Shown: positions 43,264-56,279, counted from the first letter of the stretch. The stretch is DNA of 56,371 nucleotides from Promethearchaeota archaeon (GCA_019058365.1 JAHPZE010000029.1:1-56371), one strand, 5' to 3'. The notes: a model not told the origin generated them from the letters alone. Program-made: numbers and translations.

Positions 43264-44622
43264 ATGTCTACTCACATTGTAATTGTTGGAATGGGATATG
43301 TTGGAATTCCTATGGCGGCATTACTAGCAGATGTGGATGATTTCTACGTTACGGGAATTCAGCGTAGGTCTCAACGATCGGGATGGAAAATTGATTGGCT
43401 TAACCAAGGGAAAAATCCTTTTGAAGGTGAGGAACCTGGATTAGATGAGTTAATTGCTAGAGTAGTAAAAAATGGAAAATTTAAAGTGACTGATAAGTAT
43501 GATGATGTGGATAAAGCAGATTTTGTGTTAATTGATGTACAGACCCCGGTAGATGATAAACAAATCCCTAGATATGCATCTTTAAAAGATGTTTCGAAAC
43601 TGATTGCACCTCACCTAAAGAGAGGAGCTACGGTAATAATAGAATCGACTGTTGCTCCTGGAACTACAGATAATATTGTCCAGCCTATCTTAGAGAAGCA
43701 CAGTGGTATGAAAAGAGGCGTGGATTTCTATTTAGTTTTTTCTTTTGAACGAGTAATGCCCGGCAAATTAATTGAATACATTACAGATTTTCCAAGAGTT
43801 ATTGGGGGAGGATGTGAGAAAGCTAGTGAAAATGCTAAATTCTTATATGGAAAAGTGGTTAAAAAAGACCTACAAGTCACTGATACTCTTACAGCAGAAT
43901 TAACTAAAACAATAGAAAACACATATAGAGATGTAAATATCGCTTTTGCTAATGAGATGGCATTAGTTGCAGAAGATTTTGATAGAAATATCTTTGAAAT
44001 TATTGAGTTAATAAATTACAGGCATGACAGAATGATGCATTTCCCAGGTTCTGGCGTAGGAGGACACTGTCTTACAAAAGATCCGTGGTTATTAATGTAT
44101 GGATTAGAAACATATACAAAAAAGAAATATAATCCCAGAATTCTACCAACAGCAAGAAATTTAAACGAATTTATGCCTGAACATATGGTTGAGTTAATGG
44201 AGGATGCTCTTAAAGAAGTTGGAAAGCATGACAATTTAAAGATATCCCTTATGGGTGTTTCCTATAAAGCTGATTGTGACGATACAAGAAATACACCCTC
44301 AGAAAGAATTGTTGCATTATTACAAAGTAGATATCATTCTCATAACATAACATATATAGCTCATGATCCGTGGGTTAAAGAGAAAGATTATAAGGAAACA
44401 GAATTAACTGATGATATTGATAAAGCTGTTTCTGATACAGATGTTCTTATTTTTGCTACAAATCATAAAGAATATTATAATATTGATCTTGATGATTTAA
44501 GAAGGAAAGTAAGAACACCAATTATTATTGATGGTAGAAATATATTTAGCAAGAAAGTGGTTGAAGCCAAAGGATTTATCTATCGTAAAGTAGGAGAAGG
44601 TTCCAAGAATCTCAAAAAATAG
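43264..44622 (+). CDS. UDP-sugar (UDP-Glc/UDP-HexNAc) dehydrogenase, WecC/WbpA-like
   Basis: GMGYVG, IESTVAPG, ERVMPG, K..EN.YRDVNIAFANE, GGHCLTKDP. Confidence 0.93.
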   Translation: MSTHIVIVGMGYVGIPMAALLADVDDFYVTGIQRRSQRSGWKIDWLNQGKNPFEGEEPGLDELIARVVKNGKFKVTDKYDDVDKADFVLIDVQTPVDDKQIPRYASLKDVSKLIAPHLKRGATVIIESTVAPGTTDNIVQPILEKHSGMKRGVDFYLVFSFERVMPGKLIEYITDFPRVIGGGCEKASENAKFLYGKVVKKDLQVTDTLTAELTKTIENTYRDVNIAFANEMALVAEDFDRNIFEIIELINYRHDRMMHFPGSGVGGHCLTKDPWLLMYGLETYTKKKYNPRILPTARNLNEFMPEHMVELMEDALKEVGKHDNLKISLMGVSYKADCDDTRNTPSERIVALLQSRYHSHNITYIAHDPWVKEKDYKETELTDDIDKAVSDTDVLIFATNHKEYYNIDLDDLRRKVRTPIIIDGRNIFSKKVVEAKGFIYRKVGEGSKNLKK

Positions 44623-44645
44623 ATGATTAAAAAAAAGTTAGTTCG

Positions 44646-44711
44646 AATCTCAGAGTTCGTGCGGAACTCAAAATTAAATCCTACCATTTTATGATTTAAT
44701 TCTTTAAGATT
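44646..44711 (-). promoter_or_regulatory. Three-way-junction RNA element, copy B (candidate recoding/SECIS-like element)
   Basis: Minus strand: AAUCUUA/UGAGAUU closing stem; AAUUAAAUC/GAUUUAAUU hairpin with 12-nt loop AUAAAAUGGUAG; GAGUUC/GAACUC hairpin with loop CGCAC. Confidence 0.65.
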
Positions 44712-44717
44712 TTTGAA

Positions 44718-44855
44718 TCATTTGTTTTTTTCTTGATTTTCACGCATTTTTCGGAGTTTTTCTGCTCTTCTGTACCACATAGTTAACATATTTCAACTTG
44801 TACTATAGCAATCATCATCAAACTCAAAATCTAAATAATCTTCTTGTTCTTCCAT
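44718..44855 (-). CDS. Candidate small selenoprotein / UGA-readthrough peptide B (45 aa)
   Basis: MEEQEDYLDFEFDDDCYSTS-UGA-NMLTMWYRRAEKLRKMRENQEKNK*; AAGGT SD-like site upstream; in-frame TGA at 44795-44793. Confidence 0.55.
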
Positions 44856-45014
44856 CGTATAGCAACCTTTAATTATCTAATTCTTCTAAGAGAGATAAAA
44901 GATAAAAAAATGGTGATTATAAAAAATAAAGACTCTTACGTGAGAGAGAATTTTTTATAAAAAAATTGAAATTAGGTTTAATTATTAATAAACACAATTG
45001 AAAATTTTTGTTTT

Positions 45015-45081
45015 AATCTCGAATTCTTCACGGAATTCATAGGAATAGATTCTAATGTTTACCAATTCATTCCTTGAGATT
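45015..45081 (-). promoter_or_regulatory. Three-way-junction RNA element, copy A (candidate recoding/SECIS-like element)
   Basis: Minus strand: AAUCUC/GAGAUU closing stem; AGGAAUGAAUU/AAUCUAUUCCU hairpin with 12-nt loop GGUAAACAUUAG; GAAUUC/GAAUUC hairpin with loop CGUGAA. Confidence 0.65.
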
Positions 45082-45240
45082 ATTTATTTTTACTTTTACT
45101 TTTTTTCTTTTTTGACGTCGTTTTTTTATACTATTTATGCATGCTATAACGCCATCAATAATACCTCAACCAGTACAACGTGTTTCATTGGTATTAAAAT
45201 TACTAAGCTCATTTTCTAATTTACTTTTCCATTCTGACAT
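45067..45240 (-). CDS. Candidate small selenoprotein / UGA-readthrough peptide A (57 aa, CxxU)
   Basis: MSEWKSKLENELSNFNTNETRCTG-UGA-GIIDGVIACINSIKKRRQKRKKVKVKINNLKE*; in-frame TGA at 45168-45166. Confidence 0.6.
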
Positions 45241-45693
45241 TGTCTTGTTTAAACTTTAGAGTTTTTTAGATTAAAAAGCAATTCCGGAAATATATATATT
45301 TTTATTATGATTTTAAACCAAATTTACTTTAAATTTTTAATATTATAATCTAACTTTTATTTAACTTAAATTTTAAAAAAGTGAATAATTTGTTATTTCA
45401 AGTGTATTATTATATAACCACAATATCTAAAAAATATGACTATGGACCTTTAGAATAACATTATTACGGGAAATACGGTAAATGAAAATACTCGATGTAT
45501 ATATTTTCACTGTTATCAGCTTCCCAAAATAAAACTTTATTAATTTCAGAATATAACTCTAATCGTCTGACTATTTTTGAGTTTTCTAACATAAATATTA
45601 TACTTTATAATTAAATAAAATCCTTTTCTATTTCCAATAAATAGGAAATTTAATTTAGTTAATAAAGTTAATAATACTTTTAAAAATAAATTA

Positions 45694-48600
45694 TTAATTT
45701 TTGTCTAAAAGATTCTTTTCAAATATTGTTTTACAATACTTGCATTTAATTTTTTCTTGTGTTTCCTCCAGATTTTCAATAGTATCGCCACAATAAGGAC
45801 AGCGTAAAGATCTTAGTTTAAGGTTATAGGTTTTTTGAAATGTAATTTCAGCTAATTGCCATATATGAGTCATTACTCCCGTAACAGTAGAATTTTCCTC
45901 AGCAGCTACACTTAAAATTGCTGTATTCTTTCTTTCATTTACTTTAATTCTAATAATTATTTGTTCTCTATGACCCAACTCTGGATCAATATGTTGATCT
46001 TGAATTAGATAATAAATCTCTACAATTAAGGGCTCATTACTTTCGTAAATTGGTTCTGAGACCGATTTACCCGCCCATGCACCAACGGCTTCTCTTAAAA
46101 CATTGAAAGTACTGTTTGGATCAAGTTCCAACTCAGAGGATCTGGATGTACGAATCAATCTTTTGTCCTCAAAAATATTCTTTACCATTGCTACATTTTC
46201 TTCGCCAACGTTAGCAATGGGAGGACATTTTGACTCAACCACTAACGGATCTTTTAAAACCATTTTAGGCTTTCCATAAGCATCAAAATAAGTAGCAATA
46301 GGATGTACCGGAATTTTGCCACATATCATAGGCTCTAAATAAAAATCAATACTAATTGATTGATTAGGAGATATATTAGGAATTTCCGCACGATCACCTT
46401 TTTTGTATGTTCTAGGTTTAATATCAATAATTCTTATGTGTTCTGCAGCCATTTTAAGTTCGATTGCTAAGTCATTAATCGACATTTCGGTGGAATTATT
46501 AATTGCAACTTTATATCTAATTAAACCACCTACAAAATCCATACCTCGTTTTAATTCAATAGTTTCTGTTGTAATTTCTTTTGGAGTTATTTTAGTGTCT
46601 ATTAATCTTTTATTGAGAGATTCTACAAAATTATTTAAATCTATTTTATTAAATTTAACATTTAGCATCGGCATTAATAAGTTAGGAATGTAATCTTCAT
46701 TATTGTAAACAGGGATAATTTCCATCTTTCCTTTTTTAACTAATTGATAAGCAGCATGCCATTCACCTTTTACTGAGTTTGATTTCATTGAGTTTTCTGT
46801 ACAAAATAAAATAAAAATATTACATTTATCTAAAGTTTCTTCCATATATTCTACTATATTTTGTCCACTCCATTTTTCATAAAAATAAACTTTTTCTACT
46901 TCATCGAATTCCTCTAATAATTCTGCGATTTTAGGTATCTCAAAATAATCAAAGTCTAATGAAGAATAACTGAAGAATACATTCCTTTTTGCTCCTACTT
47001 TAGGAATCATAGGGGGGGAAATTATCTTTTCTTCCTCGATTTCCTTTTTTTCTATTCTTCGTTTTTCTCGAAGAGATACTTTTTTCTTCCACACTATCGC
47101 TCCACTTATAGCCATAATAAGGCTTATGCTAATAATGATAATTATTATAAGTCCGATAGGTAAAGGGGTTCCATCGGAAGGAATATCAGAAGTTTTAGTA
47201 ATTGAAACTTGTTGAAACCCTATATTTCCTGCGAGATCTTTAGCATAAAATCGAATAATTATATTTCCTTTGGGTAGTGAATCCCATAAAGTTTGATCAA
47301 TATTTCCTGTTAAACCCGTAAAAGTTACATTTTGAGACCAATGAGTGCCATCAAATAATGAATACCATGTGTAATTTATGATTCCATCCTCAATTATAGA
47401 AATACTAAAGTCAGGAGGATTTTGCCCAAATAAACTGTTCAAAGATGGAGAAAGAATAGAAATTACTGGATTTATCTCTTTAACAATCATTTTTATAGTG
47501 TCGGTAGCAAAATTATCGTAATCGTCCGTAAAATTGACTGTATAGAGATATTCGCCTACTAATAGACCGTTCGGAACATTGTACGTAATTGTCGTGTTGT
47601 TTAACCATGCGCTCGGATCTGTAACTATTCCAGATCCCTGAAGCTCAATCGTGTAAATGTTTGGATTTGAATCTGTTGCCGTCCACGAAATATTCACACC
47701 TGTATAGCCGTAATCAACGGTAAAATTGCTCGGAGCATTTGTTATTATCGGATCTTCTATTTCTGTAATAGTCATTTTTACAGTGTCGGTAGCAAAATTA
47801 TCGTAATCGTCCGTAAAATTGACTGTATAGAGATATTCGCCTACTAATAGACCGTTCGGAACATTGTACGTAATTGTCGTGTTGTTTAACCATGCGCTCG
47901 GATCTGTAACTATTCCAGATCCCTGAAGCTCAATCGTGTAAATGTTTGGATTTGAATCTGTTGCCGTCCACGAAATATTCACACCTGTATAGCCGTAATC
48001 AACGGTAAAATTGCTCGGAGCATTTGTTATTATCGGATCTTCTATTTCTGTAATAGTCATTTTTACAGTGTCGGTAGCAAAATTATCGTAATCGTCCGTA
48101 AAATTGACTGTATAGAGATATTCGCCTACTAATAGACCGCTCGGAACATTGTACGTAATTATTGTAGCGTCTAGCCATGCAATCGGACCTGCTACTATTC
48201 CAGATCCCTGTAGTTCAATTGTGTAAATGTTTGGATTTGAATCTGTTGCCGTCCACGAAAAACTTACCCCTGTGTAGCCATACTTAACAGTAAAATTGTT
48301 TGGGGCATTTGTTATTATCGGATCTACCATATCAACTCTCTTTCGGATTTGAATGACTGCCAAACCCGAGGGTCCATCTGCCATATAGGCGTAATCTCCG
48401 CTCACGTAAACGACATGTGCAGGTCCGGTCGTGGCTTCGTAGATGGGTGTTCCCGGGTTTGTCGGGTTGGAAATGTCAATGACCGCCAAGCCTGATTCCC
48501 TATCCGCCACATAGGCGTAATCTCCGCTCACGTAAACTCCATGTGCATATCCGGTCGTGTCTTCGTAGACGGGCGTCCCCGGGTTTGTCGGATCGGAAAT

Positions 48601-50241
48601 GTCAATAACTGCTAAGCCAGAAAACCCATCCGCTACATAGGCATAATCTCCACTCACGTAAACTCCAACTGGAGATCCAGTCGTGTGTTCATAGATGGGT
48701 GTTCCCGGGTTTGTCGGGTCGGAAATATTAATGACCCACAAATCCGATTCTCTATCTGCTACATAGGCGTAATCTCCGCTCACGTAAATACCATGCGCAT
48801 ATCCGGTTGTGGCTTCGTAGACAGGCGTTCCCGGGTTTGTCGGATCGGAAATGTCAATGATCGCTAAGCCCGAGGGTCCATCCGCTATATAGGCATAATC
48901 TCCGCTCACATAAACTCTAAGTGCCTGTCCGGTTGTATCTTCGTAGATGGGCGTTCCCGGGTTTGTCGGGTCGGAAATATCAATGACCGCCAAACCAGAG
49001 TATTCATCAGCCACATAGGCATAATCTCCACTCACGTAAACTCCAACTGCAGTTCCAGTCATTTCTTCGTAGATGAGCATCCCCGGATTCATCGGGTCAG
49101 AAATATCTATGATTGTCAAGTTTCCATCTGCTACATAGGCATAATCTCCATCTATGTAAACGTCATTTGCGCTTCCTGTCGTGACTTTATAGATGGGCAT
49201 TCCTGGGTTTATAGGGTCGGAGATGTGAATGACTGCTAAACCCGAGTTCCAATCCGCTACATAGGCGTAATCTCCACTCTCATAAAAGTTATATGCAACT
49301 CCAGTCGTGTCTTCGTAGACGGGCGTTCCCGGGTTTGTTGGGTCGGAAATATTAATGACCGCTAAGCCCGAGTTCCCATCCGCTACATAGGCATAATCTC
49401 CACTCACGTAAATGCCACGTGCATATCCAGTCGTGGCTTCATAGACAGGGATTCCCGGGTTTGTCGGGTCGGAAATGTTAATGACTGCTAAGCCCGAGTT
49501 CCCATCCGCTACATAGGCATAATCTCCGCTCACGTAAACACCCCATGCCTCTTCGGTCGTGGTTTCGTAGATAGGTGTTCCCGGGTTTGTCGGGTCGGAA
49601 ATATTAATAACCGCCAAGCCAGAAAACCCATCCGCTACATAAGCGTAATCTCCGCTCACATAAATACCACGTGCAAATTCTGTCGTGTCTTCGTAGATGG
49701 GTGTTCCTGGGTTTGTCGGGTCGGAAATATTAATGACCGCCAAGCCCAAGAGTCCAACAGCCACATAGGCATAATCTCCACTCACGTCAATGCCCCATGC
49801 CTCGCCGGTTGTGTCTTGGTAGATGGGCGTTCCTGGGTTTATAGGGTCGGAAATATTAATGACCGCCAAGCCTGAGAGTCCAACAGCTACATAGGCATAA
49901 TCTCCACTCACGTAAACGTCAAGTGCCTGTCCGGTTGTGTATTCGTAGACGGGCGTTCCCGGGTTTGTCGGATCAGAAATATTAATGACCGCCAAGCCCG
50001 AATTCCCATCCGCTATATAAGCGTAATCTCCACTCACATAAATGCCATATGCAGCTCCGGTCGTGGCTTCATAATAAACAGAAGATTCTCTGGGGGGCTG
50101 GGGGGTAATAATTTTATTGGTATTATTTTCGTCATAGGAAACTTCAATATCTCTCTGATTACTTGCTAATAAATTTGGGATTATGACTAACGTTAAAACT
50201 AATATTATAATAAGCTTTAATTTTACGTATTTATTATTCAA
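45694..50241 (-). CDS. Single-pass receptor-like protein: signal peptide, 14 LVIVD beta-propeller repeats, Ig-like stalk, TM, TIR domain, Ig/platform (appendage-like) domain, Zn ribbon
   Basis: 14 x (V/I)xxxGDYAY...L.(V/I)I.I repeats; TM LIIIIIISISLIMAISGAIVW; NVFFSYSSLD...FILFCTENSMKSNSVKGEW (TIR); CPYC...CKYC. Confidence 0.88.
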   Translation of the reverse strand: MNNKYVKLKLIIILVLTLVIIPNLLASNQRDIEVSYDENNTNKIITPQPPRESSVYYEATTGAAYGIYVSGDYAYIADGNSGLAVINISDPTNPGTPVYEYTTGQALDVYVSGDYAYVAVGLSGLAVINISDPINPGTPIYQDTTGEAWGIDVSGDYAYVAVGLLGLAVINISDPTNPGTPIYEDTTEFARGIYVSGDYAYVADGFSGLAVINISDPTNPGTPIYETTTEEAWGVYVSGDYAYVADGNSGLAVINISDPTNPGIPVYEATTGYARGIYVSGDYAYVADGNSGLAVINISDPTNPGTPVYEDTTGVAYNFYESGDYAYVADWNSGLAVIHISDPINPGMPIYKVTTGSANDVYIDGDYAYVADGNLTIIDISDPMNPGMLIYEEMTGTAVGVYVSGDYAYVADEYSGLAVIDISDPTNPGTPIYEDTTGQALRVYVSGDYAYIADGPSGLAIIDISDPTNPGTPVYEATTGYAHGIYVSGDYAYVADRESDLWVINISDPTNPGTPIYEHTTGSPVGVYVSGDYAYVADGFSGLAVIDISDPTNPGTPVYEDTTGYAHGVYVSGDYAYVADRESGLAVIDISNPTNPGTPIYEATTGPAHVVYVSGDYAYMADGPSGLAVIQIRKRVDMVDPIITNAPNNFTVKYGYTGVSFSWTATDSNPNIYTIELQGSGIVAGPIAWLDATIITYNVPSGLLVGEYLYTVNFTDDYDNFATDTVKMTITEIEDPIITNAPSNFTVDYGYTGVNISWTATDSNPNIYTIELQGSGIVTDPSAWLNNTTITYNVPNGLLVGEYLYTVNFTDDYDNFATDTVKMTITEIEDPIITNAPSNFTVDYGYTGVNISWTATDSNPNIYTIELQGSGIVTDPSAWLNNTTITYNVPNGLLVGEYLYTVNFTDDYDNFATDTIKMIVKEINPVISILSPSLNSLFGQNPPDFSISIIEDGIINYTWYSLFDGTHWSQNVTFTGLTGNIDQTLWDSLPKGNIIIRFYAKDLAGNIGFQQVSITKTSDIPSDGTPLPIGLIIIIIISISLIMAISGAIVWKKKVSLREKRRIEKKEIEEEKIISPPMIPKVGAKRNVFFSYSSLDFDYFEIPKIAELLEEFDEVEKVYFYEKWSGQNIVEYMEETLDKCNIFILFCTENSMKSNSVKGEWHAAYQLVKKGKMEIIPVYNNEDYIPNLLMPMLNVKFNKIDLNNFVESLNKRLIDTKITPKEITTETIELKRGMDFVGGLIRYKVAINNSTEMSINDLAIELKMAAEHIRIIDIKPRTYKKGDRAEIPNISPNQSISIDFYLEPMICGKIPVHPIATYFDAYGKPKMVLKDPLVVESKCPPIANVGEENVAMVKNIFEDKRLIRTSRSSELELDPNSTFNVLREAVGAWAGKSVSEPIYESNEPLIVEIYYLIQDQHIDPELGHREQIIIRIKVNERKNTAILSVAAEENSTVTGVMTHIWQLAEITFQKTYNLKLRSLRCPYCGDTIENLEETQEKIKCKYCKTIFEKNLLDKN
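47487..48340 (-). repeat. Three tandem 285-bp intragenic repeats (95-aa Ig-like domains), two essentially identical
   Basis: Same sequence recurs at 47756 and 48041 (offset 285); protein unit DPIITNAP...DNFATDT. Confidence 0.92.
48345..50075 (-). repeat. About 14 tandem ~129-bp LVIVD-coding repeats, GC-rich relative to the window
   Basis: Recurring ATAGGC(A/G)TAATCTCC(A/G)CTCAC and CCCGGGTTTGTCGG blocks; 43-aa period. Confidence 0.92.
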
Positions 50242-50870
50242 AACTTTTAATTACTCTATAAATTTTTTTACATAAATGTCTTTGAAAAATAAAGAGACTT
50301 TCTTCTTTATAAACTTTTTTCCAAATCATGGGATTTCAAATTTTTGAGATTAAGGAAAAAAAGTTAATACTCAATACCATAATGAGAATTAATTCCTTGA
50401 GAGAAGTAATAGTGCTTTATCATCGTTGTTAAAACCCTTATTTCAGTTCTCTTTCAATTATTATCATTTAGATCAAATCGAAAACCCCAGAAACCCGATA
50501 TATCGATATATTGTCGAAATTTATTTCTTTTTGGAGAAAGAATCAAAACCACCCTCCTTACTATATATTCTTTTTATATTACAGTTGGAGTTCATGTATT
50601 GTCTTTTTCTTTATATAATTGGGAATACTATTTTCATAACTCCTAATTTAAAATTAACAGTGGTTTAAAATGGCAAATTCACATGGAAGTTTATGTCGAA
50701 GCAAGTGTTGCATAACACTTTTTTTAGCTCTTTTAAGAAATTTCAGTGTGTGCTAATAAAAATTTATTAGGAATTTAAATTATCATCACAGGAGATTAAA
50801 TCTTCATGCTATATTGCGAAATTATTTAGTGCGTTATGAATATATTAAAATAATTAAAGAATATGTTGTT

Positions 50871-53800
50871 TCATTTTGTTCTTTTAGGTTTTTTTAATTG
50901 TTTATTAAAATGAGTTTTAAATTTTCCCCATAGGTTTTTTAGATCTCTTTGTGAACTAATTATTACTACTATACCGGGAAAACCAATAAGTATACTGATA
51001 AGTACTCCTGAAATAACATTTATATTGTCATTTTTACTTAAGGTTGGATCTTCAACTTCTTTTCCTTTTTCATATACCAGAAATTTAGTTAGTATTTCAG
51101 TTTCTTTTCCATCCAATCCTCGTGCCCAAATTGTAATATTATGAGTTCCTATTCCATATCCATCAATTGAAAAACTAAATAGTTGCCCACTAACATAATT
51201 ATTTGAATATGTAATAGCGTTATCAATAGAAAAAGTAAAATGATCTGGATATTTAGAAAAAATTGTAAAGTTGATGATATTTCCGCTAGAGTTGAATTCA
51301 TAATCATCAAGAAAATTAACATTAATTGTTGTAATAGATGATGAATAAATGTTGAACTCTGAGTTGTTTATTCCGATTTTTCCATCTAATCCAATTGCCC
51401 ATATGAAAATTGTATGAGTTCCAATACTGGCAGTATAATTATCCAACAAGAATGTTATAGGAACACCATTAATGTAATGATCGATTTTTAGTATAGTTCC
51501 ATCAATCCATAACTCATAGTAATCAGGATAATCACTATGAATAGAAAATGTCATATTATATTTATTTGAAAGAAATTCGGCATCATTTAAAATGTCAATT
51601 CTAATTACGGTCGATGAACTGGAATATACACTAAACTCCGCCATCAAAGTTCCAATTTTACTATCTAACCCTATAGCCCAAATATATATTGAATAATTTC
51701 CTAAGACTGAGGATAAATAATCAAGTGAATATAAAATATATTCTCCACTACTATAATTATCTGTGAGAACTAAAACATTATCAATCCATAGTTCATAAAA
51801 GGCAGGATAATTTGAATAAATTGAGAAATTTAAATAATTTCCTGTTGTAAAGAATTCAAATCCCTCTAAATGGTGTATGGAGATTAGTGTAATAGAACTA
51901 GAATATACATTAAACTCAGCATGTATAAGATATTCTTTATAATCTCTTCCAACGGCCCATATTTCGACTGTATGATTACCTAAAATAGCAGAATAGCTGT
52001 CTAAGGAAAATAAGATATAATCTCCATTTGTATAATTACCCATTATTACCAGATTGCCATCAATCCATAATTTATAATAATCTGGATATTCAGAGAAAAT
52101 AGAAAAGTTAAGTAAATTATTTGTTGATAAAAATTCACATCCTTGAAGAGCATTGATAATTATTATAGTTGTTGAATTTGAATAAATGTTGAATGATGTG
52201 TTCAATATCGCAATTTTTGTGTCAATACTCCTTGCAATAATAATAACAGAATGATCTCCAATATTATATCCATCAAATTGATATAAAATGATTTGTTCTG
52301 GAGTAAAACTGCCATTATCAACCAAGATCCCATCAATTGAGATATTATACGTACCTGTATACTGAGATGAAATACTAAAATTAATATAATTACCAACTGT
52401 CATAAATATATAATTTGGAAGGCTATTCACATTAATAATAGTTGTTGAGTTTGAGTATACATCAAATTCAGCAAAAGCTGTTCCAATTTTTCCATCTAAA
52501 CCTATTGCCCAAATAAAGACTGTATGATTTCCAATGGCATATCCATCAATAGAATAATATAAGTATTGACCATTCACAAAATCTCGATTATCAATGAGAA
52601 AACCGTCGATATAAAAAGTAAAATAATCGGGGTAAGATGAACTAATATTAAATTTAATGTAATGACTTGATGTTTGAAATTCATAATCAGGCAATTCTTT
52701 AATTACAACGATTGTATTTGAAAGAGAGTAAACAGTAAAACTCGATTGAATTGATGTCTCACTACCATCAGTACTATTAGCCCAGATTCTAATAATGTGT
52801 TCACTTACATTATAGCCATCTATCGAAAGATTGAAATAGTGCCCACTATGATTGTATTTTCCTGTCCAATTAAGTACATCATCAAGATAGAACATAACTA
52901 TATCTGGAAAGGAAGCATTTATACAAAACAAGATCTTATTTCCATTAGTTTGAAATTCATAATTTGGGAGATCGAGAATGTTAATTTCTATAAAGGAGTG
53001 ACTAAATACACTAAACTGAACGGAATTTGTTGATTCTTTTCCATCTGAACCGTTTGCCCAGATTAACAATGTATGAATTCCGACGTCATACCCATCAATT
53101 GAGCAATTTACTGTAAGATTTTTAATATAATTGTCTTTTTCTATTAGTTCTTCATCAATAAATACTTTATAGGTATCTGGATAAGAAGAACTTATGCTAA
53201 AATTTACGTAGTTCTCTATTGTTTCAAAAATGTAGTTATTAACTGAGTAGATAGTTATAATAATTTCAGAATTGGAAAAAACCATAAAACTGCTGTATAC
53301 TATACACTCCATCTCATCCAGACCTATTGCCCAGATAGTAATATTATGAATTCCTACGGTAAATCCATCGATTGAAAATTGAAAGATTTGGCCATCATAA
53401 TATATCCCTGAGTTTATTTCAATATTATCAATGGAGAAATTATAATGATCTGGGTATTGGGAATTCATATGAAATGTTATGTTATTTCCTAAAGTCATGA
53501 ACTCATAGTCATAAAGCTGATCAATAGTTATAATTGTACTTGAGTCTGAATAAACCGAGAATGTAGCAGATACTTCCCCATAATGCCCGTCTAGAGCTGT
53601 AGCGTTAATTTTTATGTTATAATCTTTAATTTCATCGGCAAATTCATCTAAGGAATATATAAATGTCTCGCCATTTTGATCAAACATTCCCGAATCTACA
53701 AGAGTTCCATCAACCCAATACCAATAAGTTCCATTATAACCAGCTTCTATATGAAACGTTATATTATTCCCGGTTGAGAGAAACTTGCAATTTTCTAAAG

Positions 53801-56279
53801 AAGTTATATTAATGATCGTGCTTGAATCGGAGTATATATTAAAAGTTGATACAACCTCTCCATAACTCCCATCCAGAGCTGTCGCATTTATTTTTACTGT
53901 ATAATCCTTAATTTTTGTTGTAAATCCATCCAATGAATACACAAACACGTCTCCGTTTGGATTGAAGGCATCTGAATCCATTAGAATGCCATCAACCCAA
54001 TACCAGAACATTCCACTATATTTTGCATTAATAGTGAATGTAATATTATTTCCGGTAGAGAGAAATTTACAACTTTCAAGATGATCGATATTTACATACG
54101 TAATAGAATTACCAAGATCATTTACGACCATCTCAGCAACCCATAATAATACTTCTTGATGTATTTGGTCTTTATCATTAGTCAAGTAATATTCTTTATA
54201 CTCTTCAGAGTAAATATCTCCAATAAGTTGATAAATGAGATCATAATCAAGTGGTATAATTTCTTCTATAAGTTTTGAGATTTTATATGTATAATACACG
54301 CTTTTAATATTTGAATAATTGATATGATTGAATACAAAATTCTTTATCTTAGTTTCATCCAAATCAAAAGAATCAATACTTTTCAAGATATAAATCGCAT
54401 AAAATGTATTTTCTATGAGTATTTCAGGATTCATGGTATATCCAGGAGAAAAATATTGGAAATTTTCATCTTCAAAGATATGATTATGAATATAATTACT
54501 GAGAGCAGAAACATCAAAGTCAAGAGAAGTGATATCTCCTAAACCTAAATAATCACTAAGTAATTCAACAGTAGCGATTACGAAATATGAATAATCAATA
54601 AAAATTTTCTCATTTTGGTACTCTGAACTACCCAGAGAAAAACTCAGAAATGGAAGAAATCCCCCATAATTATCAAATCCAACTCTTAAAAATTGACTCT
54701 CGAGATTTGAATCTAATAATTTAGTTAAATTATGAGTTTCCGCAAAAGTGTTCAATTTTCCTAACAATCTGAATGATTCCAAAGCATTATAGGTGTGCTT
54801 ATGTGATACTAAAGAAGGCTCTACTTGTTGGAGATGATTTTGATCCCCTGAACAATAATATTCAATAGGAAATGAACGATATTTTCTCCAACTATCTTCA
54901 AAAATTGTTCCAGCTATAAATCCGTCGCAATCTGAAAGAGAATTGTATACATATGAATTTTCAATAATAGAGTAGAGATATTGATCATCTAATTCAGAAG
55001 TCCTATTATATAGATCAAAAGAGTTAATGATAGTATATAGAAGATTAATTGAGGTATACTCTTTCGAAAGTAATGAAAATCCTTTGTAACTAGTAAAATT
55101 TCGTATCGCATTTGAGATCATATTTTTATCATTCTCAGTTAAAAGAGAGATCTCTCCTGAATCTGACAATGATCGAATTACTTGAAACGTGTCAATCAAT
55201 TCACAATAGAGATATTCTGTTGAAAAATTCCAGATTCCTTTATTATTCCGGTTATTAAGAATAAAATTGACAATATTTGCTCTATCAATTCCAGTATAAG
55301 ATGTTAAATCAGAAAGAACCAACCCTAGAGAAGTTCCTGCAATATTTCCGTAATTTTCCAGTAAGAAATGAGACATCTGAAAACTATAAGTTGCTGGATC
55401 ATATAAACCCTCAAGATACTGATGAAAATCATCTATATTAATTACATCTACTACACCAAAGATATCTAATGATTTGATACAATAATAAGATGAAAGAAGA
55501 TTTGGCTCAAATAGATCTATTGTATCAATTGTATGATCTATATCATTTTCGAATCCCCCAAAATACCAGTAAAAGACATTAGTTGACTGTAAATCTTGTA
55601 TATATTGAATCAGCTCATTTTTTTCAGTAATGTAGTTATTCCAATCATTCATAAGAAGGTCTAATGTAACGATGGCAAAATAAGTATTATCCATAGTTGA
55701 TACTTTAAAATAATCGGGTAAATTAGAGTTATAGGGTTTACCAATAAACCCACTCGTTGAAGTTTGGTAGCAATCCCAGATGAAATCAATTGATTTTTGA
55801 ATATCAATCAGAATTAGATTGTTTAAAATTTCAAGCGATAAAATAGCATAGCAATTTACTTCTAGAAGCGATGAGTATGGATAATATGTCTTGGAAATAT
55901 TCATATCTAGATACCTTAGTGAGTAATCGTCTGTAAAGGTAAATGAGCTTTGGTTATAACAACTCATTATATAGTTAAGTATTCTAGTTTGGTTTATATC
56001 CGATAACCTCCCAACCTCCTCTAATATCGAAAGAGCATAATACATAGCTTGCAATGAGGGTTGGTATATTTGAAGGAAATATCCTAAAGAGTTATAATCA
56101 TCTAACTTTGAATTTAGTATTTCAGGTACAATATCAAAATTATTTGTAGAAGGGGGTAAAAAGGATTCAGAAGTCTCTTTAGATAAATCGTAATTATGAG
56201 AGTGTACAAATAAAGTAAGAACTAAAAAACTCACAAATAATCCAGTAGTCCACAAGAGTTTATGCTTTTTTAGAACCAT
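50871..56279 (-). CDS. Large secreted, membrane-anchored protein: PFTB-like alpha/alpha toroid head plus ~11 tandem ~90-aa Ig-like repeats
   Basis: First ~720 aa align with 121..3087 (YQPSLQAMYYAL, LEVNCYAI, FEPNLLSSYYCIK); repeats end WA.G.DG; C-terminal TM plus basic tail. Confidence 0.8.
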   Translation of the reverse strand: MVLKKHKLLWTTGLFVSFLVLTLFVHSHNYDLSKETSESFLPPSTNNFDIVPEILNSKLDDYNSLGYFLQIYQPSLQAMYYALSILEEVGRLSDINQTRILNYIMSCYNQSSFTFTDDYSLRYLDMNISKTYYPYSSLLEVNCYAILSLEILNNLILIDIQKSIDFIWDCYQTSTSGFIGKPYNSNLPDYFKVSTMDNTYFAIVTLDLLMNDWNNYITEKNELIQYIQDLQSTNVFYWYFGGFENDIDHTIDTIDLFEPNLLSSYYCIKSLDIFGVVDVINIDDFHQYLEGLYDPATYSFQMSHFLLENYGNIAGTSLGLVLSDLTSYTGIDRANIVNFILNNRNNKGIWNFSTEYLYCELIDTFQVIRSLSDSGEISLLTENDKNMISNAIRNFTSYKGFSLLSKEYTSINLLYTIINSFDLYNRTSELDDQYLYSIIENSYVYNSLSDCDGFIAGTIFEDSWRKYRSFPIEYYCSGDQNHLQQVEPSLVSHKHTYNALESFRLLGKLNTFAETHNLTKLLDSNLESQFLRVGFDNYGGFLPFLSFSLGSSEYQNEKIFIDYSYFVIATVELLSDYLGLGDITSLDFDVSALSNYIHNHIFEDENFQYFSPGYTMNPEILIENTFYAIYILKSIDSFDLDETKIKNFVFNHINYSNIKSVYYTYKISKLIEEIIPLDYDLIYQLIGDIYSEEYKEYYLTNDKDQIHQEVLLWVAEMVVNDLGNSITYVNIDHLESCKFLSTGNNITFTINAKYSGMFWYWVDGILMDSDAFNPNGDVFVYSLDGFTTKIKDYTVKINATALDGSYGEVVSTFNIYSDSSTIINITSLENCKFLSTGNNITFHIEAGYNGTYWYWVDGTLVDSGMFDQNGETFIYSLDEFADEIKDYNIKINATALDGHYGEVSATFSVYSDSSTIITIDQLYDYEFMTLGNNITFHMNSQYPDHYNFSIDNIEINSGIYYDGQIFQFSIDGFTVGIHNITIWAIGLDEMECIVYSSFMVFSNSEIIITIYSVNNYIFETIENYVNFSISSSYPDTYKVFIDEELIEKDNYIKNLTVNCSIDGYDVGIHTLLIWANGSDGKESTNSVQFSVFSHSFIEINILDLPNYEFQTNGNKILFCINASFPDIVMFYLDDVLNWTGKYNHSGHYFNLSIDGYNVSEHIIRIWANSTDGSETSIQSSFTVYSLSNTIVVIKELPDYEFQTSSHYIKFNISSSYPDYFTFYIDGFLIDNRDFVNGQYLYYSIDGYAIGNHTVFIWAIGLDGKIGTAFAEFDVYSNSTTIINVNSLPNYIFMTVGNYINFSISSQYTGTYNISIDGILVDNGSFTPEQIILYQFDGYNIGDHSVIIIARSIDTKIAILNTSFNIYSNSTTIIIINALQGCEFLSTNNLLNFSIFSEYPDYYKLWIDGNLVIMGNYTNGDYILFSLDSYSAILGNHTVEIWAVGRDYKEYLIHAEFNVYSSSITLISIHHLEGFEFFTTGNYLNFSIYSNYPAFYELWIDNVLVLTDNYSSGEYILYSLDYLSSVLGNYSIYIWAIGLDSKIGTLMAEFSVYSSSSTVIRIDILNDAEFLSNKYNMTFSIHSDYPDYYELWIDGTILKIDHYINGVPITFLLDNYTASIGTHTIFIWAIGLDGKIGINNSEFNIYSSSITTINVNFLDDYEFNSSGNIINFTIFSKYPDHFTFSIDNAITYSNNYVSGQLFSFSIDGYGIGTHNITIWARGLDGKETEILTKFLVYEKGKEVEDPTLSKNDNINVISGVLISILIGFPGIVVIISSQRDLKNLWGKFKTHFNKQLKKPKRTK

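What the first reader, a model, noticed from the sequence alone, without database searches (positions are those of the whole stretch)
45694..50241. Toll-like-receptor-style architecture in an archaeon: beta-propeller ectodomain, TM, TIR
Seen: signal peptide, 14 LVIVD blades (two 7-bladed propellers by count), Ig-like stalk, single TM, cytoplasmic TIR (~46990-46600) retaining a Glu in SNSVKGEW. Established: the equivalent Glu is catalytic in NADase TIRs (SARM1, plant TIR-NLRs, Thoeris ThsB). Inference: a ligand-clustered immune or signalling receptor producing NAD-derived signals.
Basis: partly seen in the sequence, partly recalled or inferred. Interest (0 to 1): 0.75.

Follow-up and report, generated by a model that had tools for sequence, protein, structure and literature searches.

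The report
Asgard membrane TIR receptor with adaptin-like tail
A Loki-type Asgard archaeon encodes an intact surface protein with a repeat head outside the cell, one membrane helix, and inside an enzyme-type TIR domain followed by an adaptin-ear-like domain. The layout resembles animal Toll-like receptors by analogy only, and the gene belongs to a strain-variable archaeal family with swappable heads.

Summary
Window 45694-50241 (minus strand) is one intact 1515-residue ORF. It has an N-terminal signal or anchor, 14 LVIVD repeats, four Ig-like domains, one membrane helix and a TIR_2 domain (Pfam E 3e-13).

The TIR model matches solved TIRs at Z 13-15. Glu1160 and Ser1154 align with the active-site residues E74 and S68 of the NADase Cat1, and both are invariant in 22 family members. 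Charge, cysteine and glycosylation-site distribution place the TIR in the cytoplasm.

This finding omitted the last 290 residues. They form an adaptin/COPI/BBSome appendage-like domain plus a zinc ribbon. That domain is homologous (hhalign 99.9%) to the appendage domain of a conserved Asgard Vps28-C (ESCRT-linked) protein.

The tail recurs on unrelated heads. A same-genus genome carries a tail 60% identical behind an FG-GAP head, and another congener lacks exactly this 5.3-kb gene cassette.

The genome's only RelA/SpoT-TPR-SLOG gene lies beside the closest TIR paralog, on another contig.

"Toll-like" is analogy: there are no LRRs, the TIR is closest in sequence to prokaryotic enzyme TIRs, and the family is largely confined to one Asgard family. 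An immune role and NADase activity remain untested. The scan has met this receptor family before in other genomes; the LVIVD head and the TIR-appendage fusion are new here.

The parts
50257..50262 (-). TATA-like box (TTTATA) 16-21 nt upstream of the TTG start. It suggests an own promoter and a near-leaderless mRNA.
   Evidence: Sequence read. This is a consensus match only, not tested.
50161..50241 (-). N-terminal signal peptide or anchor (aa 1-27: two Lys, then a hydrophobic run)
   Evidence: Hydropathy scan. The same N-terminus occurs in homologue P0204.
48325..50082 (-). 14 LVIVD repeats of 42 aa (aa 54-639), a presumed beta-propeller head. It is GC-rich (GC3 0.4-0.6) and varies mainly at repeat positions 10, 12, 13 and 27.
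   Evidence: Pfam E 4e-143, 14 stretches; TRF period 126 x 13.7; composition; per-column entropy.
47473..48324 (-). Three tandem 95-aa Ig-like domains (aa 640-925), 94% identical at DNA level
   Evidence: TRF; weak Big_13 and K319L-like PKD hits.
47188..47466 (-). Membrane-proximal Ig-like stalk domain (aa 926-1018), shared with many surface proteins of this genome
   Evidence: tblastn hits on 10 other contigs.
47092..47160 (-). Single transmembrane helix (aa 1028-1050), followed by KKK and 10 K/R within 30 residues
   Evidence: Hydropathy and flank charges.
46597..46989 (-). Cytoplasmic TIR domain (aa 1085-1215). It carries Ser1154 (46780-46782), Glu1160 (46762-46764) and the unusual Trp1124 (46870-46872).
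   Evidence: Pfam TIR_2; AF2 pLDDT 92.5; VIA Z 13-15 to solved TIRs; alignments to Cat1 and to a TIR-TPR protein; Cat1 active-site list.
46210..46560 (-). Appendage-like domain, beta-sandwich half (aa 1228-1344), with invariant Cys1307 and Cys1339
   Evidence: AF2 pLDDT 94.2; Foldseek and VIA matches; alignment A3.
45826..46194 (-). Appendage-like domain, platform (TBP/helix-grip-like) half (aa 1350-1472)
   Evidence: VIA Z 11.2, rmsd 3.0, 121 aligned residues to the AP-4 beta appendage platform 2mj7.
45706..45801 (-). C-terminal zinc ribbon (CPYC...CKYC, aa 1481-1512); all four Cys are invariant in the family
   Evidence: Alignment A3; weak zinc-ribbon Pfam hits.
45506..50839 (.). 5.33-kb cassette (gene plus both flanks) that is present here and absent from same-genus genome G177. 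It is bounded by ATATATT microhomology.
   Evidence: blastn and junction alignment.

Best explanation
The gene encodes a type-I surface receptor or adhesin.

Shown:
- An exported LVIVD repeat head on an Ig-like stalk, one TM helix, then a cytoplasmic TIR that keeps the Ser/Glu catalytic pair of prokaryotic NAD+-cleaving TIRs.
- After the TIR, an adaptin-appendage-like domain with a zinc ribbon.
- The TIR(-appendage) tail is a portable module joined to unrelated heads.
- The gene is a strain-variable cassette.

Inferred mechanism:
- Binding of a multivalent outside ligand (a surface of a partner cell, a virus or a polymer) brings receptors together.
- The TIR domains pack side by side, which in known TIR enzymes forms the composite active site, and they cleave NAD+.
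- The product (ADPR or a cyclic ADPR-type nucleotide) is read in trans by the genome's single RelA/SpoT-TPR-SLOG protein, encoded beside the closest TIR paralog. The output would then be an alarmone-type stress response rather than necessarily cell suicide.
- The appendage-like tail, homologous to that of the conserved Vps28-C protein, acts as a protein-docking hub. It would couple the receptor to ESCRT-type sorting or turnover, or to a scaffold.
For: Architecture and topology:
-. The ectodomain has no Cys, 1.1% Lys, 121 D/E against 21 K/R, and 23 NxS/T sites. The tail has 8 Cys, 10% Lys and a basic stop-transfer stretch.

TIR fold and catalytic residues:
- Fold confirmed.
- S1154 and E1160 align with Cat1 S68 and E74, which line the Cat1 NADase site and whose alanine mutants lose function in vivo.
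- The same Glu aligns with the SxWVxxE motif of a TIR-TPR protein.
- Both residues are invariant in 22 family TIRs.
- An archaeal TIR (TcpO) is an active, Glu-dependent NADase (PMC10022894).

Activation by assembly:
- The Cat1 active site is built from two TIRs on assembly.

Family:
- Tails recur with beta-helix, Peripla_BP_6, SBP_bac_5, FG-GAP and CARDB heads.
- The G189 tail is 60% identical over 462 aa behind an unrelated head.
- Genomes carry up to 11 copies.

Candidate reader:
- The only RelA_SpoT gene of the genome (plus TPR and SLOG/LSDAT_prok, 27.1 bits) lies directly after the TIR paralog that is 53% identical to this TIR.
- The same adjacency or proximity is seen in 8 other genomes (searches compared).

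Appendage domain:
- Foldseek top 14 hits are AP2 and COPI appendages, E 8e-10 to 5e-7.
- VIA Z 10.5-12.1 over about 200 residues to BBS9, alpha- and beta2-adaptin.
- hhalign probability 99.9, E 3e-31, to the appendage region of P0307, which ends in VPS28-C. This matches the class described in PMC10936438.

Variability:
- Clean presence/absence against G177.
Against: - No enzymatic, expression or localisation data exist.
- Nothing next to this gene looks like a reader or effector. Its neighbours are a surface protein, small ORFs and UDP-glucose dehydrogenase.
- PADLOC finds nothing.
- The RelA/SpoT-SLOG gene is on another contig, and only 13 of 54 genomes of the family have it against 32 of 54 with the TIR family. 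It cannot be an obligatory partner.
- This protein and its G189 relative carry Trp where the rest of the family has a near-invariant Asp just before the BB-loop Gly. That could weaken catalysis.
- The canonical Trp of the SxW motif is Ser or Ala in the whole family.
- The TIR fold matches scaffold TIRs (MyD88, MAL, TRR-2) about as well as enzymes.
- The closest relatives of the head (70-73% identity) are plain surface proteins with 10-residue tails. The head may be an adhesin rather than a ligand sensor.
Confidence: 0.5

Rival explanations
1. Scaffold-type signalling as in animal TLRs. The TIR is not an enzyme but a homotypic docking domain that, on clustering, recruits soluble TIR proteins of the same genome, such as the ankyrin-TIR on C39 and the TIR protein on C43. 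The appendage domain would serve as a second docking site.
For: - The TIR matches MyD88, MAL, IL-1R-type and Hydra TRR-2 TIRs at Z 12-13.5.
- The genome encodes soluble TIR proteins.
- An Asp-to-Trp change sits at a near-invariant position.
- The appendage fold is a known interaction hub (PMC10936438).
Against: - The invariant Ser/Glu pair sits at the enzymatic positions.
- The nearest sequence relatives are NADases.
- The metazoan TIR model PF01582 does not reach threshold.
- No death-domain-type adaptors were seen.
- A SLOG nucleotide reader is linked to the family.
Confidence: 0.15
2. Abortive-infection sentinel. The head detects virus attachment at the surface, and the clustered TIRs simply deplete NAD+ and stop or kill the cell, with no second messenger.
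For: - Cat1 and SPARTA, the closest structural and sequence relatives, act by NAD+ depletion on assembly.
- The gene is a strain-variable cassette.
- The family is multi-copy, clustered and fast-changing.
- Variation is focused at a few blade positions.
Against: - Known anti-virus TIR systems sense infection inside the cell.
- Paralogous heads are solute-binding proteins, which fit nutrient or signal sensing better.
- There is no PADLOC match and no defence genes lie nearby.
- The linked RelA/SpoT-SLOG gene suggests a relayed signal.
Confidence: 0.15
3. Mainly a structural surface protein or adhesin. Its cytoplasmic tail only serves sorting, anchoring or turnover through the appendage domain, ESCRT or the cytoskeleton. 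The TIR would have a housekeeping or no signalling role.
For: - The closest head relatives are tail-less surface proteins.
- The appendage-type tail sits on hundreds of membrane proteins with varied heads and no TIR.
- The neighbouring gene is another giant surface protein.
Against: - The TIR is strongly conserved, 50-60% identity across the family with invariant catalytic residues.
- That conservation is hard to explain without a TIR-specific function.
Confidence: 0.15
4. Assembly chimera: a GC-rich foreign piece joined in silico to an AT-rich Asgard gene.
For: - The LVIVD part has 48-53% GC against about 29% in the window.
- The genome bin has 6.6% estimated contamination.
Against: - The frame is uninterrupted.
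- GC3 falls stepwise through the Ig repeats.
- Homologue P0204, on an independent contig, shows the same GC-rich LVIVD block inside AT-rich DNA.
- The closest head relatives are Promethearchaeota proteins.
- The flanks match congener G177 at 90-94%, with a clean junction.
- Read-level checking could not be done.
Confidence: 0.03

Closest known systems
Animal Toll / Toll-like and IL-1 receptors (including Hydra TRR-2)
   Same: Both are type-I single-pass proteins with a large repeat ectodomain and a cytoplasmic TIR. The TIR fold matches TRR-2 at Z 13.5 and MyD88 at Z 13.2.
   Different: - The head is LVIVD plus Ig, not LRR.
- The TIR keeps the enzyme-type Ser/Glu pair and is closer in sequence to prokaryotic TIRs.
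- PF01582 is below threshold.
- An extra appendage-like domain is present.
- The family is limited mostly to one Asgard family, so the likeness is convergent layout, not ancestry.
Prokaryotic enzymatic TIRs: Cat1, SPARTA TIR-APAZ, AbTir/TcpO, Thoeris ThsB
   Same: TIR_2-type domain. Cat1 matches at Z 14.7, rmsd 2.0, 21% identity, and the SPARTA TIR at 23% identity. Active-site Ser and Glu are conserved. A SLOG-domain gene is linked to the family, as in Thoeris.
   Different: - Those proteins are soluble and are triggered from inside the cell (cA4, guide-target duplex, phage proteins).
- This one is membrane-anchored with an extracellular head.
- ThsB_TIR scores only E 0.15.
- No adjacent ThsA-type effector is present.
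Asgard membrane TIR receptors with beta-helix or solute-binding heads
   Same: Same TIR tail at 50-60% identity. Paralogs occur in this genome on C7, C33, C53 and C16.
   Different: - This copy has an LVIVD head, the only LVIVD gene in the genome.
- It is one of only four proteins found with the TIR followed by the appendage-like domain. The others are P0002, P0003 and G189:C705.
Archaeal and Asgard adaptin-appendage-region proteins linked to ESCRT (Makarova et al. 2024, PMC10936438)
   Same: Ig-like sandwich plus TBP/platform half, in some members with a zinc ribbon. hhalign gives probability 99.9 to the appendage region of a Zn-ribbon/wH-PCI/Vps28-C protein that is conserved in 48 of 54 genomes of the family.
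   Different: Here the domain is the C-terminal tail of a membrane TIR receptor and lacks the Vps28-C and steadiness-box parts. That paper does not mention TIR.
Eukaryotic AP2 alpha/beta2, gamma-COP and BBS9 appendage (ear) domains
   Same: Two-subdomain fold. Foldseek gives E 8e-10. VIA gives Z 10.5-12.1 over 190-205 residues, and the platform alone gives Z 11.2 at rmsd 3.0.
   Different: - Sequence identity is 7-12%.
- The subdomain orientation differs (overall rmsd 12-13).
- There is no solenoid trunk.
- The sandwich half alone matches many unrelated Ig-like folds equally well.

Membership tests
TIR domain superfamily (Pfam TIR_2, PF13676) | Profile score above the curated cut-off | tested here: met
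   50.7-53.1 bits against a cut-off of 28; E 3e-13 to 5e-14.
TIR domain superfamily (Pfam TIR_2, PF13676) | Flavodoxin-like alpha/beta TIR fold | tested here: met
   AF2 pLDDT 92.5. VIA Z 14.7 at rmsd 2.0 over 118 aa to Cat1, and 13.2-14.5 to RPS4, AbTir, RUN1 and SARM1.
Enzymatic (NADase) TIRs | Catalytic Glu on helix alphaC, and the preceding Ser | tested here: met
   E1160 and S1154 align with Cat1 E74 and S68. Both are invariant in 22 relatives.
Enzymatic (NADase) TIRs | NAD+ cleavage that depends on the Glu and on oligomerisation | not testable with these tools
   This needs a biochemical assay.
Toll-like receptors | Leucine-rich-repeat ectodomain | tested here: not met
   Pfam finds LVIVD and Ig-like domains only.
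Toll-like receptors | Type-I topology with a cytoplasmic TIR | tested here: met
   Two hydrophobic segments, positive-inside flank, and compositional contrast between ectodomain and tail. This is a prediction only.
Toll-like receptors | Metazoan-type TIR (PF01582) | tested here: not met
   PF01582 gives E 0.056 and 13.7 bits against a cut-off of 21.3.
Toll-like receptors | Signalling through TIR adaptors | not tested
   No adaptor search was made.
Thoeris (ThsB sensor + ThsA effector) | ThsB-type TIR | tested here: not met
   ThsB_TIR scores E 0.15.
Thoeris (ThsB sensor + ThsA effector) | Adjacent effector with a SLOG/Macro reader | tested here: not met
   The window has no such neighbour and PADLOC gives no hit. 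A RelA/SpoT-TPR-SLOG gene does lie next to a paralog on contig C53.
Adaptin-appendage-like region (archaeal class of PMC10936438) | Ig-like sandwich followed by a TBP/platform subdomain | tested here: met
   AF2 pLDDT 94.2; Foldseek and VIA matches to AP2, AP4, COPI and BBS9 appendages.
Adaptin-appendage-like region (archaeal class of PMC10936438) | Sequence homology to the Asgard appendage + Vps28-C proteins | tested here: met
   hhalign probability 99.9, E 3e-31, 225 columns. P0307 carries VPS28 at E 1e-4 plus PCI and DDRGK.
Adaptin-appendage-like region (archaeal class of PMC10936438) | Binding of partner proteins or ESCRT components | not testable with these tools
   No partner is known; this needs pull-downs.
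LVIVD-repeat cell-surface proteins (PF08309; PMC2447325) | Tandem 42-aa LVIVD repeats in an exported protein | tested here: met
   14 repeats; signal segment present.
LVIVD-repeat cell-surface proteins (PF08309; PMC2447325) | Beta-propeller fold (two 7-bladed propellers) | not tested

The most novel reading that the evidence does not exclude
An Asgard archaeon has a complete outside-in pathway built from parts otherwise known separately. A clustered surface receptor makes an NAD-derived messenger with its TIR. A SLOG-RelA/SpoT enzyme converts that messenger into an alarmone response. The receptor's own adaptin-ear-like domain hands it to the Vps28/ESCRT sorting machinery for down-regulation. 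This would be a prokaryotic counterpart of receptor signalling coupled to endocytic-type sorting.
Probability: 0.1. Interest if true: 0.9.

Novelty: new variant of a known kind. Interest (0 to 1): 0.62.

Why it matters
TIR domains are shared by animal, plant and bacterial immunity. In prokaryotes they are known as soluble enzymes triggered from within the cell. A family of single-pass surface receptors with an enzyme-type TIR inside would show that outside-in TIR signalling exists outside animals. It would also give a direct test of whether clustering at a membrane switches on a TIR NADase.

This copy adds a link between such a receptor and an adaptin-ear-like domain shared with the Asgard Vps28-C protein. 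That makes the proposed role of archaeal appendage domains as cargo or partner hubs for ESCRT experimentally approachable.

The limited lineage range argues that this is parallel invention rather than the ancestor of Toll-like receptors. That bears on how far Asgard "eukaryote-like" features should be read as ancestry.

Tried and rejected
- TIR homodimer prediction (complex prediction, two copies with alignment A1) gave no answer: score 0.00, below the mark, controls not run. It is not used as evidence either way.
- PADLOC on the whole protein and on the tail found no family.
- phmmer of the LVIVD head and of the Ig stalk against PDB sequences found nothing.
- The ESM Atlas feature search for the SLOG part of the RelA/SpoT protein gave no usable hit.
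- The whole TIR-plus-tail model aligns with SPARTA TIR-APAZ over about 235 residues at Z 15.1 and rmsd 18. That is barely above the TIR alone (Z 14.2), so I do not claim an APAZ relationship.
- Recent foreign origin of the GC-rich head is rejected, because an independent homologue shows the same GC-rich block in AT-rich DNA.
- Literature searches for TIR receptors in Asgard archaea found only defence-system surveys that list TIR-containing systems by name. The searchable library excludes most subscription journals.

Full report
**What is there**

Window 45694-50241 (minus strand) is one uninterrupted ORF of 1515 codons. The window is AT-rich (about 29% GC), but the 5' third of the gene has 48-53% GC. 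Pfam finds 14 LVIVD repeats (E 4e-143) and a TIR_2 domain at aa 1088-1203 (50.7 bits, cut-off 28), plus weak Ig-type hits.

By direct reading the protein has these parts:
- A basic-then-hydrophobic N-terminus.
- 14 units of 42 aa (one of 40) built around GDYAY.
- Three 95-aa Ig-like units whose DNA is 94% identical.
- A fourth, membrane-proximal Ig-like domain shared with many surface proteins of the genome.
- One hydrophobic helix (aa 1028-1050) followed by KKK and 10 K/R in 30 residues.
- The TIR.
- A further 290 residues ending in CPYC...CKYC.

A TATA-like box lies 16-21 nt before the TTG start. The start position agrees with the ATG start of a homologue.

**Topology**

Only two segments are hydrophobic enough to span a membrane. 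The part between them has no cysteine, 1.1% Lys, 121 acidic against 21 basic residues, and 23 N-x-S/T sites (an NIS in most blades). The part after the second segment has 8 Cys, 10% Lys and a strongly basic start. It remains a prediction.

**The TIR**

With an alignment of 74 relatives, AlphaFold2 gives a confident model of TIR plus tail (pLDDT 92.5). The TIR part aligns with these solved structures:

| Structure | Z | Detail |
|---|---|---|
| Cat1 | 14.7 | rmsd 2.0, 118 residues, 21% identity |
| RPS4 | 14.5 | |
| SPARTA TIR | 14.2 | 23% identity |
| Hydra TRR-2 | 13.5 | |
| AbTir | 13.5 | |
| RUN1 | 13.5 | |
| SARM1 | 13.2 | |
| MyD88 | 13.2 | |

The fold is therefore TIR, but fold alone does not separate enzymes from scaffolds.

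By sequence, the only PDB relatives are Cat1 and a bacterial TIR-TPR protein. In the Cat1 alignment, S1154 and E1160 fall on Cat1 S68 and E74. Those residues line the Cat1 NADase pocket, and their alanine mutants abolish the response in vivo (PMC12162218). Both residues are invariant in 22 family TIRs. The catalytic role of this Glu is established for AbTir, ThsB and the archaeal TcpO (PMC10022894).

Two deviations should be noted:
- The Trp of the usual SxW motif is Ser or Ala in the whole family.
- This protein and its closest relative have Trp1124 where the other family members have a near-invariant Asp just before the BB-loop glycine.

**The unmentioned C-terminal domain**

Folded alone (61 sequences, pLDDT 94.2, pTM 0.87), aa 1222-1515 form a beta-sandwich, an alpha/beta platform and a zinc ribbon.
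- Foldseek's 14 best PDB matches for the larger model are all AP2 alpha/beta2 or gamma-COP appendage domains (E 8e-10 to 5e-7).
- An independent all-against-representatives alignment gives BBS9 GAE+platform Z 12.1 (190 residues), alpha-adaptin Z 10.8 (205), beta2-adaptin Z 10.5 (204) and gamma-COP Z 9.7 (211).
- The platform alone matches the AP-4 beta appendage at Z 11.2, rmsd 3.0.
- The sandwich alone matches many Ig-like folds equally well, and the large overall rmsd (12-13) shows a different hinge angle.

An exhaustive profile-free search finds the domain in 415 representative clusters, always at the extreme C-terminus. Most carriers are membrane proteins with varied heads (fn3, SBBP and FG-GAP propellers, beta-helix, PKD, CARDB). 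Some also carry DDRGK/PCI winged helices or Ras-like GTPases.

In this genome the only other copy is in P0307, a protein with zinc ribbons, wH/PCI/DDRGK, the appendage region and VPS28-C. hhalign links the two at probability 99.9, E 3e-31. That protein is present in 48 of 54 sampled genomes of the same family. It fits the Asgard "adaptin appendage + Vps28-C + HTH/PCI" class that Makarova et al. tie to ESCRT (PMC10936438). That paper also notes zinc-ribbon-bearing appendage proteins, and it does not mention TIR.

**Relatives and modularity**

The tail finds three architectures:
- Head-TM-TIR-appendage: P0003. P0002 is a soluble Zn-ribbon-helical-TIR-appendage form.
- X-appendage: many proteins.
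- Head-TM-TIR ending at the TIR: many proteins, with beta-helix/NosD, Peripla_BP_6, fn3 or SBP_bac_5 heads, where named as Promethearchaeota.

The genome itself has further TIR_2 genes:
- C7: Peripla_BP_6 + fn3 + NosD + TM + TIR.
- C33: giant beta-helix + TM + TIR.
- C53.
- C16: 3 TM + TIR.
- Two soluble ones.

A same-genus genome (G189) has a 1574-aa frame whose juxtamembrane region, TIR and appendage domain are 60% identical to ours over 462 residues. Its head is FG-GAP/CARDB and is unrelated.

The LVIVD head has 70-73% identical relatives in other Asgard-type contigs, none with a TIR. One of them (P0204) has the same signal, the same GC-rich repeat block in AT-rich DNA and only a 10-residue tail. 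The odd composition is thus a trait of this repeat family and not a chimera. LVIVD occurs in no other gene of this genome.

In 251 sampled genomes of the phylum, the TIR subfamily is found in 38. Of these, 32 are among the 54 genomes of the same family, with up to 11 copies. It was not found in the other large families sampled.

**Genomic setting**

Neighbours are a 1802-aa type-I surface protein upstream (prenyltransferase-like toroid, short basic tail), small ORFs downstream, then UDP-glucose dehydrogenase, rhomboid and a response regulator. No defence or effector gene is adjacent.

The congener G177 has flanks 90-94% identical but lacks window 45506-50839 exactly. The junction carries an ATATATT microhomology. 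More distant congeners have ordinary genes there. The gene is therefore an accessory cassette in a variable surface-protein region.

**A candidate reader**

Following a lead from earlier notes of this scan, I searched the genome for RelA_SpoT. The single hit lies directly after the C53 TIR paralog, which is the TIR closest to ours at 53% identity. It encodes RelA_SpoT + TPR + a SLOG domain (LSDAT_prok, 27.1 bits against a cut-off of 25.4 when scanned alone).

Comparing hit positions, homologues of this gene lie next to or within about 16 kb of a family TIR in G189, G177, G207, G147, G071, G171, G180 and G129. Only 13 of 54 genomes of the family have it, however, so it is not universal. Kin are not independent samples.

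**Reading**

The architecture, the fold assignments, the modularity and the variability are shown. The following steps are inferences:
- That the TIR is an NADase.
- That clustering switches it on.
- That the SLOG-RelA/SpoT protein reads its product in trans.
- That the appendage domain couples the receptor to ESCRT-type sorting.

Solute-binding heads on paralogs argue for general environmental sensing at least as much as for antiviral immunity. The likeness to Toll-like receptors is one of layout only.

The scan has reported this receptor family on other genomes before. New in this copy are the LVIVD head, the TIR-appendage fusion, the homology to the Vps28-C protein and the clean presence/absence polymorphism.

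Noticed in passing
window 48325-50082; L012:600-2400: The LVIVD repeat block has GC3 of 0.4-0.6 in a genome with GC3 near 0.2, and the same is true of an independent homologue. The repeats are 72-87% identical to each other at DNA level, apart from units 8 and 14. This looks like homogenisation, perhaps GC-biased gene conversion, but it is unexplained.
   Followed up: partly
G000:C53:31612-34179 (L017:7613-10183): The single RelA/SpoT + TPR + SLOG (LSDAT_prok) gene of the genome lies directly downstream of a TIR paralog (C53:28578-31079). The pairing recurs in eight other genomes of the family.
   Followed up: partly
G000:C40:11267-13639 (L011:768-3140, P0307): A conserved 790-aa protein carries N-terminal zinc ribbons, DDRGK/UFM1-ligase-like/PCI winged helices, an adaptin-appendage-like region and a VPS28-C-like end. 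It is present in 48 of 54 sampled genomes of the family.
   Followed up: partly
window 50871-56279: The upstream neighbour is a 1802-aa type-I surface protein with a prenyltransferase-like alpha/alpha toroid domain and a short basic tail. The G177 ortholog aligns in two overlapping pieces, which suggests a different number of internal repeats.
   Followed up: no
window 44523-45505: The stretch downstream of UDP-glucose dehydrogenase holds small ORFs and RNA-like elements noted by others. It is conserved at 94% (G177), 80% (G256) and 68% (G252) nucleotide identity, although the DNA beyond it differs between these genomes.
   Followed up: no
L021:100-13117: On one metagenomic contig, four genes lie head to tail: an LVIVD surface-protein gene, a small 2-TM gene, a soluble Zn-ribbon-TIR-appendage gene (P0002) and a beta-helix-TM-TIR-appendage gene (P0003). 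This hints that heads and TIR-appendage tails are recombined locally.
   Followed up: partly
window 46225-46227 and 46321-46323: Two further cysteines (C1307, C1339) and the motifs EPxxCG and CP are invariant in the sandwich half of the appendage-like domain across 61 relatives. Their role is unknown; a metal site or a structural pair is possible.
   Followed up: no
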